A stretch of DNA of 64,000 nucleotides from the NCBI RefSeq assembly GCF_057098645.1, contig NZ_CM169472.1; one strand, given 5' to 3'. Below are positions 55,301-61,300 of this stretch, in pieces. A program made the position numbers. The number at the start of each line of letters is the position of its first letter. The stretch's first letter is position 1.

Positions 55301-58300
55301 CAACAACATCGCAAGAATTAATGCGATTTTACGCATACTGCTTATTCCTTGATAAAACGGTTACACACGCCAGGACGGCAAAATGGATCCCAAATCGGAA
55401 TAGTCTGGATTTGGAAGGCTCACATTATCACCAAAAGAGTTTTACGCAAGCCTGTCGGAGCAGGGTTTACAAATTTAGCATAAGTAGCGATTTTCAAAAG
55501 TCCGAAAAGCGCATGTAAAACGGATTTATTTCTTATTTCCTAAGATTATGAAACCTCGATAGTAATATGCAAATAAGCAATTAATAATCCCGCTTCTCCT
55601 TTCTGTCCCCTAATATTCTCATCTTCATTCAGCCGGTTTATATCTTCCATGTATTTGTTCTCTCACGACAGATTGCTGCGCCTGGGCGTGTTTTCTTTGC
55701 CCCTTTTGCTTCCTTTACTCGCCAGCGCCGCCACACCGCACATCTCCCTCAGCTACGCCGCCCGCCAGCGGATGCAAAACCGTGCGCGGGTACTCAAACT
55801 GTACCAGGCACATCTGAAAAAACAGGCCAGCTATATTGTGGAAGGCAATGCCGAAAGCAGACGGGCGCTGCGCCAGCACAACCGTGAGCAGATAAAACAG
55901 CACCCGGAGTGGTTTCCTGGCCCGCTGAAATTGAGCGACCGACGCTGGCAGGCGCTGGCGGAAAACAATCACTTTTTAAGCAGCGATCACCTGCATAATA
56001 TTACCGAAGTGGCGATCCACCGCCTGGAGCAGCAGCTTGGCAAGCCTTACGTCTGGGGCGGCACGCGGCCCGATAAAGGCTTCGACTGTAGTGGGTTGGT
56101 TTTTTATGCCTACAACAAGATCCTCGAGGCGAAGCTCCCGCGCACGGCCAATGAGATGTATCACTACTATCGGGCAACAATTGTGGCGAACAACGACCTG
56201 CGCCGGGGAGATTTGCTGTTTTTCCATATCCACAGCCGCGAAATTGCCGATCATATGGGCGTGTATCTGGGCGATGGGCAATTTATCGAGTCGCCACGCA
56301 CCGGGGAAACCATTCGGGTAAGCCAGTTAGCTGAACCTTTCTGGCAGGACCATTTTTTGGGCGCGCGCAGGATTTTGACGGAAGAGACGATTTTGTAAAT
56401 GGGTAATATTGACGAACTGGCAAAAGGCCGGATGCCACACGGCATCCGACTTGTTTACATCTGGGCTGAAAACTCACGTTCTAAGACATCAACAATGAGC
56501 TGGTTTTTTGAAATGGAATGTTGTCTGGCGACGATGGTCAGCCGCGAATCAATGTGATGAGGAACACGAAGCGTCAGGCGTTTTTGCTCTTCTTCTTCAC
56601 GAAAAGGGGCAATACCGTCCTCTTCACAATCCGCCATCCACTCATCCAGCGCGCTTTCGCCCTCACGATATAATGCCTCAATGCTTGTGGCTACAAAGTC
56701 ACAATAACCGTTTACATTGAGGAATTTGCCGCGAAATGCATTGATATCGGCTTCAAATGTCACTGCGGCTGGTTGACCTTTAATTGTGATAATGTTCGAT
56801 GCTTTATTCATAATCTACCCCTACACAGTTAACAAACCACTCCTTAAGACCTGCTACTGCGCCTTTATCCATCACATTCTTTGGATGTGGCTCATGTGTA
56901 CTGAATTTGGTCGTTCCAATCTGAAATTTCCTTCTGGACCCATTGTTATTTTTTATTGTTCCACCCGCCGCTTTAATGAGCGCAACAACATCATCCCATT
57001 TAATTCCAGATTTTGGCGGCTCCGTCATTACATCGTCGAATGTTTTTCTATGGCGGGAGCCTAGCGCGCTGACCTTAATCATACTATCAATCCATGACAT
57101 CATTGTATGGTGTCATCGTAGTATGTTTGCAATGTGACGTCAATCAATGGTGTCAGATGCATGCAAAGCATGGAAAAGAATCCCCATCAACTCACTGCCC
57201 CCATAATCTTCAACTCCAGCTCATCCGGCACTTCGTTATACGACAGCACATGCAGCCCCGGCGCAAACAACCTTGCATAGCGAGCCAGCAAAGGGCGCAG
57301 CTGCGGCGGCACCAGCAGTACCGGGTCTTTCCCCGCCGCTTTCATCTGCTCTTTTACCTGCGGCATCGTGCTCTGGAACTGGTTGAGCATATTCGGGTCG
57401 ACCGGCACGCTGTCGAGCATCACTTTGCCGCCCTGTTGCGCCTGATTCACCACGTTGGTCAGCAGATTTTCCAGCTCATTATTCAGCATATACACCGTAA
57501 GCTCCTGCTTGCGAACGAACGGATGGGTAATGCTGCGCCGCAGCGCCAGGCGTACATCGGCTGCCAGCAGAATGTGATCTTTAGTCACCGTGCTACTGGC
57601 GACCAGCACGGTGGCGATGGTGACGATATCGCGCAGGGAAACGCCTTCGGTCAGCAGCGCACGGTACACTTTCAGCAACTGGCTGTAATTCAGCGCCGCG
57701 CTCAAATCCTCCGCCAGGCGCGGTGCCATCGACGACAGGCGGTTATGCAACTGTGTGATGTCATCATAGTTAAACAAATCAGGAATATAGCTGCGCACAA
57801 TCTTGTTTACATGGGTGGCAATCACGCTGGCGCTGTCGATTACCTGATACCCCATATTCAGCGCCTTCGCTTTCTGCGCGGGCTGGATCCAGGTCACCGG
57901 CATCCCGTACGCCGGGTCGTTCCCCAGCACGCCGTCTATCTCGCCGTAGGTTTCGCTGGAGGGCAGGGCCATCAGTTTATCCGCCGGAATATCCGCTTCA
58001 TCGGCCTTAATGCCGTTGATGAAAATAGCGTACTGGCTGGGCTTGAGGCGGAAATTTTCCCGAATGCGGATCTCCGGCAGCAGCACGCCGTTGCCGTCAG
58101 AAATCACCTGCCTCACGCCGCGAATCCGCTGGGTGAGTGGGTTGCCCTGCGCTTTATCGACCAGCGCTACTAGCTTGTAGCCAAGGCTTAAACTGATAGG
58201 CTCGATAAGCGGAATGGTTTCCCAACTGACCTGTTGCTCGCTGGTTTCAGTGATAGTGCGGGTCAGCGTTTCGAGGCTTTTCTCTTCCGCCTCCGCCGCC

Positions 58301-61300
58301 TGCGGGCGTTTGCTCATCCGCCAGCCGGTAAAACCCAGTAGGGCGCTGAACAGCAAAAACGGCAGGTGCGGCATCCCCGGCACCACTGCCAGCACGAACA
58401 TGATCCCAGTGGCGGTGTAGAGTACCGTCGGGCTTGCCAGCAGCTGGTGGCGCACGTCATGGGCGATATCGCCGTTATCGCTGACGCGGGTGACGATTAT
58501 CGCCGCCGCGGTGGAGAGCAGGAGGGAAGGGATCTGCGCCACCAGGCCGTCGCCGATGGTCATCAGCACATACTGCTGGAAGGCGGCATCGGCGCTCAGG
58601 TTGTATTTGAAGATCCCGATACAGACGCCGCCGATCAGGTTGATCGCCAGAATCATCATCCCGGCGATGGCGTCCCCGCGCACAAACTTAGATGCCCCGT
58701 CCATTGCGCCGTAGAAATCGGCCTCGCTGGCAACATCTTTACGCCGGGTTTGCGCCTGCGCCTGGTTGATCAACCCGGCGTTAAGATCGGCGTCAATCGC
58801 CATCTGCTTGCCGGGCATCGCGTCCAGGGTAAAGCGGGCAGAAACCTCGGAAATACGCTCGGCCCCTTTGGTGACGACGATAAAGTTGATTGTCAACAGC
58901 GTCAGTAAATCCGAGCGCGAAAGTATTATTGCCGCGCTGCACGGGCAGTCGATTTTCAACGGTGGCGGGTTGTCGCCGTTAAATAAAATCAGCCCGTCTC
59001 ATCCGCCAAAACCTGCCACCGTGGCGGTGCCGGAAGAGACGGAGAAAAAAGCGCGCGACGTCAATGAGAAAACGGCGCTGCTGAAGAAGAAATCCGCCAC
59101 CGAGCTTGGTGAGCTGGCAACCAGTATCAACACCATTGCCCGTGATGCGCATATGGAAGCGAATCTGGAGATGGAGATTGTCCCGCAGGGATTACGCGTG
59201 CTGATTAAAGACGACCAGAATCGCAATATGTTCGAACGCGGCAGCGCGCAGATTATGCCGTTCTTTAAAACGCTGCTGGTGGAGTTAGCGCCAGTGTTCG
59301 ACTCGCTCGATAATAAAATTATTATTACCGGGCATACCGATGCGATGGCCTACAAAAACAATATCTACAACAACTGGAACCTTTCGGGTGACCGCGCGCT
59401 TTCGGCTCGTCGGGTGCTGGAAGAGGCCGGAATGCCGGAAGATAAAGTGATGCAGGTAAGCGCAATGGCGGACCAGATGCTGCTGGATGCCAAAAATCCG
59501 CAAAGCGCGGGCAATCGGCGTATTGAGATTATGGTGCTGACCAAAAGTGCGTCCGATACGCTGTATCAATACTTTGGTCAGCATGGGGATAAAGTGGTGC
59601 AGCCGCTGGTGCAAAAGCTGGATAAGCAGCAGGTGCTTTCGCAGCGAATGCGCTAAATGCTGAATCTTTACGCATTTCTCAAACCCTGAAATCACTGTAT
59701 ACTTTACCAGTGTTGAGAGGTGAGCAATGCGTAAAATCATTCATGTGGATATGGACTGCTTTTTCGCAGCGGTGGAGATGCGCGACAATCCCGCCCTGCG
59801 CGATATCCCTATTGCTATTGGCGGTAGCCGCGAACGTCGGGGGGTGATCAGCACCGCCAATTATCCCGCGCGTAAATTTGGCGTACGTAGCGCTATGCCG
59901 ACAGGGATGGCGCTCAAATTATGCCCACATCTCACCTTGCTTCCGGGGCGCTTTGACGCCTACAAAGAAGCCTCAAATCATATCCGTGAAATCTTCTCGC
60001 GCTACACCTCGCGTATTGAACCGTTGTCACTGGATGAGGCTTATCTCGATGTCACCGATAGCGTCCATTGCCACGGTTCTGCGACCCTCATCGCCCAGGA
60101 AATCCGCCAGACGATCTTCAACGAGCTGCAACTGACGGCATCTGCGGGCGTGGCACCAGTAAAGTTTCTCGCCAAAATCGCCTCCGACATGAATAAACCC
60201 AACGGCCAGTTTGTGATTACGCCGGCAGAAGTTCCGGCATTTTTACAAACCTTACCACTGGCAAAAATCCCCGGCGTCGGCAAAGTCTCGGCGGCAAAAC
60301 TGGAAGCGATGGGGCTGCGGACCTGCGGTGATGTACAAAAGTGTGATCTGGTGATACTGCTTAAACGCTTTGGCAAATTTGGCCGCATTTTGTGGGAGCG
60401 TAGTCAGGGGATTGACGAACGCGATGTTAACAGCGAACGGTTGCGAAAATCCGTCGGCGTGGAACGCACGATGGCGGAAGATATTCATCACTGGTCTGAA
60501 TGTGAGGCGATTATCGAGCGGCTGTATCCGGAACTTGAACGCCGTCTGGCAAAGGTGAAACCTGATTTACTGATTGCTCGCCAGGGGGTGAAATTAAAGT
60601 TCGACGATTTTCAGCAAACCACCCAGGAGCACGTCTGGCCGCGGCTGAATAAAGCTGATCTAATCGCCACCGCGCGTAAAACCTGGGATGAACGCCGCGG
60701 CGGGCGCGGTGTGCGACTGGTGGGGCTGCATGTGACGTTGCTGGATCCGCAAATGGAAAGACAACTGGTGCTGGGATTATGAATAACATACAAATAAGAA
60801 ACTATCAGCCTGGCGATTTTCAGCAACTATGCGCTATTTTCATTAGAGCGGTTACGATGACCGCCAGTCAGCATTATTCACCACAACAAATTGCCGCCTG
60901 GGCGCAGATTGACGAATCTCGCTGGAAGGAGAAACTCGCGAAATCACAAGTGCGGGTTGCAGTCATTAATGCACAACCGGTTGGTTTTATTTCCCGCATT
61001 GAACATTATATCGATATGTTATTTGTTGACCCTGAATACACCCGCCGTGGGGTTGCCAGCGCTTTGTTAAAACCTTTGATTAAGTCTGAATCCGAACTTA
61101 CGGTGGACGCAAGCATAACCGCAAAACCCTTTTTTGAACGTTATGGTTTTCAGACAGTTAAGCAGCAGCGCGTTGAATGCCGGGGCGCGTGGTTTATTAA
61201 TTTTTATATGCGTTATAAACCGCAACATTAAATCCAGCTTGCAATGAAAATAACGCCCGCCTAATATGTGCGCGTTTTCTTATTCCACAAACTGCAAGGA

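What the first reader, a model, noticed from the sequence alone, without database searches (positions are those of the whole stretch)
57187..59656. Flag-2 lateral flagellar locus deletion scar: truncated lfhA abutting a truncated lafU
A FlhA homologue lacking its N-terminal membrane domain runs on the minus strand up to about 58900, where a plus-strand frame encoding only the OmpA-like C-terminal domain of a MotB homologue begins. The two extremities of the roughly 35-kb Flag-2 cluster are thus juxtaposed, the known signature of its ancestral deletion in many E. coli. Note that the HicAB-like pair sits immediately beside the lfhA 3' end.
Basis: partly seen in the sequence, partly recalled or inferred. 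Interest (0 to 1): 0.35.

Follow-up and report, generated by a model that had tools for sequence, protein, structure and literature searches.

The report
Flag-2 lateral flagella deletion scar
This is the well-known scar left in most E. coli by loss of a 35-kb second flagellar gene cluster, but the same codon-exact junction also occurs in at least six other enterobacterial genera on native, still-constrained sequence, which a single old accident does not easily explain.

Summary
Window 57187-59656, from E. coli O145 RM9872, holds a FlhA-family remnant on the minus strand (LfhA codons 131-697) abutting a MotB-family remnant on the plus strand (LafU codons 54-307). Alignment to an intact Flag-2 locus puts the junction at 58890|58891. 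It lies inside a 3-bp GAT microhomology within an 11-of-15 imperfect direct repeat, and 35,010 bp are missing. K-12 (lfhA/fhiA, lafU/mbhA) has the identical junction, as do 4085 of 5426 complete E. coli genomes. The feature is already known.

LfhA keeps its conserved loop and the hydrophobic stretches after residue 131. LafU keeps its whole periplasmic part.

One thing is unexpected. The same junction is present in E. albertii, Citrobacter, Kluyvera, Atlantibacter, Cedecea and other taxa, on genus-native arms. Scar arms are 99.8-100% identical to intact-locus arms in three E. coli allele families. Both remnants show dN/dS of 0.01-0.13, as intact genes do, although some scars are frameshifted. 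A single ancestral deletion followed by neutral decay does not fit. The alternatives are junction spread by recombination, recurrent precise excision, or selection on the remnants, and these remain unresolved.

The parts
57187..58890 (-). lfhA remnant: codons 131-697 of the Flag-2 FlhA homologue plus its stop codon. It is 1704 nt and open in this strain.
   Evidence: Pfam FHIPEP E=6.1e-189, profile 99-656/657. Colinear with L003 4357-6060 of an intact lfhA. No gaps or internal stops. PGAP calls it a pseudogene 'missing N-terminus'.
58885..58899 (.). Hybrid of the two imperfect direct repeats. The parents are GTTGATGATCATCAG (lfhA side) and GTGGATTGTCAACAG (lafU side), 11 of 15 identical. The scar reads GTTGAT|TGTCAACAG.
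   Evidence: Three-way alignment of window, L003-left and L003-right. The BLAST arms overlap at 58885-58899.
58888..58890 (.). GAT, the only exact microhomology at the crossover. The breakpoint lies somewhere between 58887|58888 and 58890|58891.
   Evidence: In the intact parent the left site lies in the 12-bp palindrome TGATGATCATCA, which contains a GATC (read directly from the alignment).
58891..59656 (+). lafU remnant: third base of codon 53, codons 54-307 of the Flag-2 MotB homologue, and the stop codon. This is the periplasmic linker plus the OmpA-like domain; the transmembrane helix is lost.
   Evidence: Pfam OmpA E=1.3e-14. Colinear with L003 41071-41836. Hydropathy places the single transmembrane helix at residues ~35-58 of intact LafU.
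58871..58890 (+). 5' extension of the annotated 261-aa 'lafU' CDS, with a GTG start at 58871. These codons are the antisense of lfhA codons, not LafU sequence.
   Evidence: PGAP CDS at L001 7772-8557 = window 58871-59656. Sequence. Junction mapping.
58891..58959 (-). 23-codon N-terminal extension of the lfhA-remnant ORF (TTG start at 58959; first 23 residues, translated codon-for-codon, LKIDCPCSAAIILSRSDLLTLLT). It is encoded by the antisense of lafU and is a by-product of the fusion.
   Evidence: The same kind of extension appears in truncated ORFs from other genera.
56455..57103 (-). hicA (56804-57082/57103) and hicB (56455-56811), a toxin-antitoxin pair immediately downstream of the lfhA 3' end. 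It is a flanking cassette and not part of Flag-2.
   Evidence: Pfam HicA_toxin E=3e-7, HicB E=2.6e-10. PGAP annotation. The same pair sits beside intact lfhA in strains 2313, ARS-C301 and O111:H8. K-12, O157, F11 and EC958 carry rayT in that position instead.
59695..59710 (+). CTGTATACTTTACCAG, a LexA-box-like sequence in the 70-bp lafU-dinB spacer. The scar ends directly against the dinB control region (dinB 59727-60782).
   Evidence: Sequence. A promoter-like site at 59676-59703. dinB Pfam IMS E=5e-51. The LexA-box assignment rests on the CTGT-N8-ACAG consensus from general knowledge.

Best explanation
Shown: this is the canonical Flag-2 (lateral flagella) deletion scar. A 35,010-bp segment (measured against strain 2313) running from lfhA codon 130 to lafU codon 53 is absent. 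It would carry lfhB, the lfi, lfg and laf genes, and lafT. The two outward-facing 3' parts of the terminal genes are joined tail-to-tail at a GAT microhomology inside an 11-of-15 imperfect repeat. The strain therefore cannot build the second flagellar system. The left remnant lacks its N-terminus and its export-gate partners. The right remnant lacks its membrane anchor. The annotated 'lafU' CDS and the 590-aa ORF both begin in antisense sequence of the other gene.

Inferred: this junction was inherited by the O145 lineage, not made de novo in it. The junction behaves as an old allele that alternates with the intact locus within species through homologous recombination in the two arms. Exchange tracts run up to the heterology boundary, so scar arms stay indistinguishable from intact-locus arms and look constrained, while some scar lineages do decay.

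My approximate weights for the origin question are:
- recombinational spread or refresh of one old junction: about 0.5
- recurrent site-specific precise excision: about 0.3
- selection on the remnants themselves: about 0.1
- plain single ancestral deletion with vertical descent: about 0.05
For: Identity as the scar rests on Pfam matches, colinearity with both ends of an intact locus and exact endpoints, a junction identical to K-12's, presence in 4085 of 5426 genomes, and literature descriptions.

Evidence that recombination moves and refreshes the arms:
- K-12 (scar) and FAM21845 (intact) differ at 1 position in the 6306 bp to the left, right up to the junction. To the right they differ by 2.3%, starting 67 bp from the junction. 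That is a recombination tract ending at the junction.
- The KKa014 scar equals the 2313 intact allele for 400 bp to the left, but is 2.5% different over the whole arm, so it is a mosaic.
- O145 and O157 scars differ by 4%, and their flanking cassettes differ too.
- Published work flags the ST131 Flag-2 region as recombinant.

Evidence that the remnants are not universally constrained: a 1-nt deletion at codon 616 (L044), a nonsense codon at residue 535 (L046), and a 22-nt deletion in the E. albertii type strain. The truncated-ORF clusters represented by these two E. coli forms (P0061, P0115) and a third 416-aa cluster (P0111) hold 794, 581 and 487 distinct sequences; some members may be contig-end partials.
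Against: Recombinational spread should leave donor-type sequence around the junction, and none is seen. There is no scar-specific haplotype. The nearest polymorphisms, at -12 and +28, segregate independently of scar or intact state. KUN2017 (scar) equals EC958 (intact) over 3.2 kb left and 3.1 kb right.

The same junction sits on genus-native arms in Citrobacter, Kluyvera, Atlantibacter, Cedecea and other taxa. Inter-genus homologous recombination across arms that are about 17-25% divergent is hard to invoke for that.

dN/dS among scar alleles is 0.008-0.043 for lfhA and 0.016-0.126 for lafU. That is no higher than among intact alleles, which is tighter than I would expect if three quarters of the gene pool were neutral.
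Confidence: 0.9

Rival explanations
1. Textbook reading: one deletion occurred in an early E. coli ancestor, was inherited vertically, and the two fragments have decayed neutrally as pseudogenes ever since.
For: All sampled E. coli scars share one junction. It is the dominant form, in 75% of genomes. Some scars carry frameshifts or nonsense codons. The cited literature calls them pseudogenes.
Against: Scar alleles differ by 4-7% with dN/dS of 0.008-0.043. For example, O145 versus O157 gives 5.5 nonsynonymous against 62.5 synonymous differences, and 8 of 8 sampled E. coli scars have open 567-codon frames. Scar arms are 99.8-100% identical to intact arms in three allele families that are about 5-6% apart: ST131, B1/2313 and K-12/FAM21845. 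The junction is not confined to E. coli.
Confidence: 0.05
2. Recurrent precise excision: a site-specific or strongly hotspot-driven process repeatedly deletes exactly the lfhA(130)-lafU(53) interval from intact loci. It would act on target sequences kept constant by coding constraint. Scars would then be young and independent in each lineage and genus.
For: The codon-exact junction is seen in E. coli, E. albertii, Citrobacter sp. MGH106, Kluyvera ascorbata, two Atlantibacter lineages, an 'Enterobacteriaceae bacterium H16N7'-like taxon, a Cedecea neteri-like taxon and one unidentified taxon, always on native arms. Scar and intact pairs within a taxon are 97.7-99.1% identical in protein or 0.9-1.2% different in DNA. 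There is no donor tract around the junction. dN/dS is low because the remnants would be young, while older ones are disrupted. Canonical scars outnumber all other configurations, about 4085 against about 170 genomes.
Against: No recombinase or recognisable recombination site was found. The exact homology is only 2-3 bp. An intact locus contains at least 60 direct-repeat families of 13 nt or more, including perfect 37-nt repeats, so ordinary slippage should not prefer this site. Even the crossover point within the imperfect repeat never varies, which fits identity by descent as well as enzymatic precision. The K-12/FAM21845 pair shows a real recombination tract abutting the junction.
Confidence: 0.3
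3. The remnants are retained genes: an N-terminally truncated FlhA-like protein and a membrane-anchor-less MotB-like protein are expressed, and purifying selection preserves the architecture.
For: Both frames are open and show dN/dS of 0.02-0.09 even between genera where dS exceeds 1. Two A. subterranea scars differ by 15 synonymous and 0 nonsynonymous changes. The fused N-terminus SDLLTLLTINFIVVT is hydrophobic. A weak promoter-like site lies upstream at 58952-58925 on the minus strand. The Keio mbhA (lafU) deletion was scored as strongly less ciprofloxacin-tolerant (PMC13131330).
Against: Large E. coli groups and the E. albertii type strain carry frameshifted or nonsense remnants. The LafU remnant has no evident signal peptide or membrane helix to reach the periplasm. 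The LfhA partners are deleted. The N-terminal extensions are automatic by-products of antisense coding. The Keio phenotype may be a polar effect on the adjacent dinB promoter. Low dN/dS is equally explained by young age or by recombinational refresh.
Confidence: 0.1

Closest known systems
E. coli K-12 lfhA (fhiA, b0229) / lafU (mbhA, b0230) pseudogene pair
   Same: The junction sequence is identical. The annotated remnant lengths match: 1719-nt FlhA pseudogene and 786-nt lafU CDS. The chromosomal position is the same, between yafL and dinB.
   Different: The window allele is only 95.8% identical to K-12 across the scar, and only 26 of 5430 records are at least 99% identical to it. The flanking cassettes differ: the window has hicAB where K-12 has rayT, and it lacks dinJ-yafQ and yafNO.
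Intact Flag-2 locus, described in E. coli 042 (Ren et al. 2005, not readable here); examined here in strains 2313, EC958 and FAM21845
   Same: The window's two arms are colinear with the 3' 1704 nt of lfhA and the 3' 766 nt of lafU. The hicAB / dinB-yafP flanks match those of strain 2313.
   Different: 35,010 bp are missing, carrying lfhB, lfiRQPNM, lafK, lfiE-J, the lfg genes, lafA-lafT and cargo genes. Arm identity to 2313 is 93.3% on the left and 97.1% on the right.
lfhA-lafU deletions reported across Enterobacterales (De Maayer et al. 2020, PMC6993521) and in E. albertii (PMC11420993)
   Same: The same pair of truncated border genes. Those papers report them in 531 of 4028 strains, including Citrobacter Clade A, and in about 75% of E. 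albertii.
   Different: In the passages I read, those papers do not state that the breakpoints are codon-identical between genera, that the arms are native, or that the remnants show intact-gene dN/dS.
Precise excision of transposons (a host slippage process between short direct repeats flanking inverted repeats) - mechanistic analogy only
   Same: One copy of a short direct repeat (GAT) remains. The inner ends of the lost segment are imperfect inverted repeats, 16 of 23 by my own reading of the sequences.
   Different: Flag-2 is not a transposon, because its ends are the genuine 5' halves of two flagellar genes. The inverted similarity is short, asymmetric, 35 kb apart, and explicable by similar transmembrane-helix codons. 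The analogy was not tested.

Membership tests
Flag-2 lfhA-lafU deletion scar (K-12 type) | Left element is a FlhA/FHIPEP homologue lacking its N-terminus | tested here: met
   FHIPEP E=6.1e-189, profile 99-656/657; LfhA codons 131-697.
Flag-2 lfhA-lafU deletion scar (K-12 type) | Right element is a MotB/OmpA-family homologue lacking its N-terminal membrane anchor | tested here: met
   OmpA E=1.3e-14; LafU codons 54-307; the transmembrane helix at ~35-58 is removed.
Flag-2 lfhA-lafU deletion scar (K-12 type) | The two fragments correspond to the two terminal genes of an intact Flag-2 cluster, with everything between them absent | tested here: met
   Arms map to L003 2864-6069 and 41065-43611; 35,010 bp are missing.
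Flag-2 lfhA-lafU deletion scar (K-12 type) | Junction identical to that of K-12 and other E. coli | tested here: met
   Base-identical junction in K-12 TOP10 and in 6 further scars. The 120-bp probe is contiguous in 4085 of 5426 genomes.
Flag-2 lfhA-lafU deletion scar (K-12 type) | Chromosomal position between yafL (C40 peptidase) and dinB | tested here: met
   PGAP annotation of the source record; the same synteny in K-12, O157, F11 and others.
Neutrally decaying pseudogene | Relaxed constraint: dN/dS approaching 1, with frameshifts or stops accumulating | tested here: inconclusive
   In this strain both frames are open. Among scar alleles dN/dS is 0.008-0.126, which does not meet the criterion. 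Other scars do carry a frameshift, a nonsense codon or a 22-nt deletion.
Type II toxin-antitoxin system HicAB (flanking pair) | Adjacent small genes with HicA toxin and HicB antitoxin domains | tested here: met
   PF07927 E=3e-7 and PF05534 E=2.6e-10, with ORFs overlapping by 8 nt. PGAP names agree. Activity was not tested.
Site-specific excision element (integrase or recombinase driven) | A recombinase gene and recognisable att-like core sites at both ends | tested here: not met
   No recombinase is annotated in three intact loci, apart from IS elements in some. The shared core is only GAT, 11 of 15 imperfect. Comparison with known recombination sites was from memory only.

The most novel reading that the evidence does not exclude
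The lfhA'-'lafU junction is not a one-off accident of E. coli history. The same codon-exact junction is either regenerated by an undescribed precise-excision process acting on two conserved flagellar coding sequences, or preserved because the two remnant ORFs are selected. Either would explain its presence on native, intact-like arms in at least seven enterobacterial genera.
Probability: 0.35. Interest if true: 0.7.

Novelty: already known. Interest (0 to 1): 0.35.

Why it matters
For this window the result is housekeeping. The locus is the standard Flag-2 scar. The annotated 261-aa 'LafU' protein and the 590-aa ORF are fusion artefacts that start in antisense sequence, and the strain lacks lateral flagella.

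The wider pattern matters more. A presence/absence dimorphism with one base-exact junction is shared by E. coli (75% scar), E. albertii, Citrobacter, Kluyvera, Atlantibacter, Cedecea and others, and the remnants look as constrained as the intact genes. This makes the locus a tractable case for two questions. One is how large gene clusters are switched in and out of bacterial populations. The other is how recombination tracts behave at a large heterology. It is also a warning that 'shared scar' does not prove 'single ancestral event'.

Tried and rejected
- The original description (Ren et al. 2005, PMC545627) is not held, so what it says about direct repeats is known only second-hand.
- A text search for 'Flag-2' together with 'deletion scar' found nothing. 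A search on the gene names returned mostly unrelated acronyms.
- I looked for a jump in divergence exactly at the junction inside intact loci, which would mark re-insertion by recombination. EC958 against three other alleles shows none. FAM21845 switches to a 2313-like block about 200 bp inside the cluster, not at the junction. This test was uninformative.
- I considered ordinary microhomology slippage as the cause of recurrence. I set it aside because intact loci hold many far better direct repeats and because the crossover point never varies among taxa.
- I considered the 16-of-23 inverted similarity of the segment's inner ends as transposon-like termini. I judged it a likely by-product of two hydrophobic-helix coding stretches.
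- I considered the functional-remnant idea seriously. I down-weighted it after finding widespread disrupted versions.
- Promoter and terminator scans gave only weak 9-of-12 matches.
- One helper script returned nothing. Two early scripts failed or only listed files.

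
Full report
**What is there.** The window is 100% identical to the chromosome of E. coli O145 str. RM9872 (NZ_CP028379.1; window position 1 = record position 194,664).
- On the minus strand, ORF 57187..58959 (590 aa) matches Pfam FHIPEP with E=6.1e-189, but only over profile positions 99-656 of 657.
- On the plus strand, ORF 58766..59656 (296 aa) carries an OmpA domain, E=1.3e-14.
- PGAP annotates a FlhA pseudogene 'missing N-terminus' at window 57187-58905. Overlapping it by 35 nt is a 261-aa 'LafU' CDS that starts at a GTG at 58871.
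- Immediately left of the lfhA stop are hicA and hicB.
- 70 bp right of the lafU stop is dinB. A LexA-box-like CTGTATACTTTACCAG sits at 59695-59710.

**Mapping the deletion.** Strain 2313 (L003) carries an intact Flag-2 locus at the same chromosomal site. Its lfhA encodes 697 aa at one end and its lafU 307 aa at the other, with about 40 flagellar and cargo genes between them.
- The window aligns to it in two arms: 55692-58899 = L003 2864-6069, and 58885-61433 = L003 41065-43611.
- Base by base, the lfhA arm ends at 58890 and the lafU arm starts at 58891. GAT (58888-58890) is present in both parents.
- The parental sites are GTTGAT|GATCATCAG and GTGGAT|TGTCAACAG, 11 of 15 identical.
- The missing interval is L003 6061-41070, or 35,010 bp.
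- LfhA loses exactly codons 1-130. LafU loses codons 1-52 plus two bases of codon 53.

Hydropathy shows the LfhA cut falls inside the hydrophobic segment at residues 118-136. The remnant therefore keeps the conserved loop, the downstream hydrophobic stretches at about 205-311 and the whole cytoplasmic domain. The LafU cut falls at the end of its only membrane helix. The first 23 codons of the 590-aa ORF and the first 7 codons of the annotated LafU are antisense sequence of the other gene.

**It is the known scar.**
- K-12 (strain TOP10, L002) has the identical junction and the same annotated remnant lengths.
- A 120-bp probe across the junction is contiguous in 4085 of 5426 complete E. coli genomes. 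About 1160 records have the two halves in separate places.
- De Maayer et al. [quoted passage not shown] Archer et al. 2011 (PMC3032704) name fhiA and mbhA as the K-12 remnants. The same 2.5-kb scar is reported in Flag-2-negative E. albertii (PMC11420993).

**What does not fit 'one ancestral deletion, then decay'.** I compared eight E. coli scars (O145 window, K-12, O157:H7, KKa014, F11, KUN2017-0933, MS6198 and the GTDB representative) with seven intact alleles.
- All eight lfhA remnants are gap-free and stop-free over 1704 nt, although they differ by 4-7%.
- Nei-Gojobori dN/dS among scar alleles is 0.008-0.043 with dS of 0.17-0.32. That matches the intact-versus-intact comparison 2313 against EC958, which gives 0.026.
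- For lafU the values are 0.016-0.126 among scars and 0.03-0.08 among intact alleles.
- Nearly all variable sites are third codon positions on both arms.
- No scar-specific haplotype exists. The nearest polymorphisms, at -12 and +28, occur in both states.

Scar arms equal intact arms in three allele families that are themselves about 5-6% apart:
- KUN2017-0933 (scar) is identical to ST131 EC958 (intact) over 3.2 kb left and 3.1 kb right, up to the junction.
- A virtual scar built from the 2313 allele matches many real scars at 99.8-99.9% over 3 kb.
- K-12's lfhA arm is 100% identical to that of FAM21845, which has K-12-like flanks and an intact locus.

**The junction is shared between genera.** A scan of species-representative genomes with the LafU remnant found scars in E. 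albertii NBRC 107761, Citrobacter sp. MGH106 and Kluyvera ascorbata ATCC 33433. In each, the lfhA arm ends ...AAGTTGAT and the lafU arm begins TGTNAACAGCGTCAG..., while the flanking third positions are genus-specific.

A protein-database search found more truncated FHIPEP ORFs with the same boundary, meaning antisense-lafU residues followed by INF(I/V)VVTKGAERISE. Their contigs show the divergent OmpA-remnant / FHIPEP-remnant pair and the same codon-level junction. Their nearest intact relatives are:
- Atlantibacter subterraneus, 99.1% aa
- 'Enterobacteriaceae bacterium H16N7', 98.95% aa
- Cedecea neteri, 97.7% aa

In Citrobacter and Kluyvera both remnants are open. Cross-genus dN/dS is 0.02-0.09 with dS above 1. 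Two A. subterranea scars differ by 15 synonymous and no nonsynonymous substitutions, and they are 0.9-1.2% from a conspecific intact allele.

**Counter-evidence to selection on the remnants.** Some scars are genuinely broken:
- a 1-nt deletion at LfhA codon 616 (L044)
- a nonsense codon at residue 535 (L046)
- a 22-nt deletion in the E. albertii type strain

Truncated-ORF clusters represented by the first two forms, plus a third 416-aa cluster, hold 794, 581 and 487 distinct sequences, though some members may be contig-end partials. The LafU remnant has no evident export signal. The remnants are therefore not universally maintained.

**Weighing the origin models.** Ordinary slippage should not hit the same base pair repeatedly. 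Intact loci contain at least 60 better direct-repeat families, including perfect 37-mers, and the crossover point inside the imperfect repeat never varies. That points to either identity by descent or an enzymatically precise process.

Recombination clearly operates here. The K-12/FAM21845 pair shows a tract whose left end coincides with the junction: 1 mismatch in 6306 bp on one side, and 2.3% divergence starting at +67 on the other. KKa014 and FAM21845 are mosaics.

I therefore favour, at about 0.5, an old junction that moves between conspecific backgrounds by homologous recombination. Exchange would run up to the heterology, and mismatch repair may erase flanking markers; that last step is inference. 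This model strains to explain native arms in at least seven genera. Recurrent precise excision (about 0.3) explains everything observed but has no known mechanism. Functional remnants (about 0.1) explain the constraint but not the broken copies. The simple textbook reading (about 0.05) is contradicted.

**Context noted.** The locus sits among interchangeable cassettes. Strains vary in carrying hicAB or rayT, and in having or lacking dinJ-yafQ and yafNO. Flag-2 in EC958 was not expressed under laboratory conditions (PMC4637896).

**Verdict.** The unresolved evolutionary pattern is the only part of more than routine interest.

Noticed in passing
window 55336-57103 and 60782-61231; loci L002, L004-L008: The toxin-antitoxin cassettes around the scar are interchangeable between strains. 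This O145 strain has hicAB next to lfhA, no dinJ-yafQ between dpaA(yafK) and yafL, and no yafNO between dinB and yafP. K-12 and O157 have dinJ-yafQ, rayT and yafNO. MS6198 has neither hicAB nor rayT.
   Followed up: partly
window 61537-63291 and beyond: An rtcB-family RNA ligase gene is split by an IS110-family element (ISEc20 transposase, 62095-63291, minus strand). The downstream prfH is annotated as intact, whereas in K-12 both rtcB and prfH are remnants.
   Followed up: no
L020, L021, L032 (Pseudocitrobacter spp.): Pseudocitrobacter carries intact Flag-2 genes whose LafT and LafU are 96-99.6% identical in protein to E. coli, and they are not next to dinB. This suggests recent transfer of the whole cluster between genera.
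   Followed up: no
proteins P0099-P0109 (E. coli, 573 aa): A set of E. coli full-N-terminus LfhA variants carries an in-frame internal deletion (...GDGLVA|LVDKAQG...). This is a second recurrent lesion in this gene, inside otherwise intact loci.
   Followed up: no
window 58918, 58924, 58930 (lafU arm +28, +34, +40): Three synonymous differences unique to the O145 allele cluster within 13 bp, close to the junction. Overall this scar allele is rare: only 26 of 5430 records are at least 99% identical, and all others are at most 96.3%. This suggests import from an unsampled divergent source.
   Followed up: partly
L003 6052-6063 (intact parent); window 58443-58450: In intact loci the left breakpoint lies within the perfect 12-bp palindrome TGATGATCATCA, which contains a Dam/MutH GATC site. 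A Chi sequence (GCTGGTGG) lies in the lfhA arm 440 bp from the junction. The relevance of either to the deletion is unknown.
   Followed up: no
records NZ_AP042548.1 and NZ_AP042480.1 (hits H109, H40/H155): Variant states of the scar exist. One strain has an IS421 insertion inside the scar. Another retains only about 147 bp of the lfhA 3' end. About 3% of genomes have neither the canonical scar nor both separate halves.
   Followed up: no
E. coli K-12 lafU (mbhA); PMC13131330: The Keio mbhA deletion was listed among the mutants with the strongest loss of ciprofloxacin tolerance. Because the gene ends 70 bp upstream of SOS-regulated dinB, this may be a polar effect and not a LafU function.
   Followed up: no
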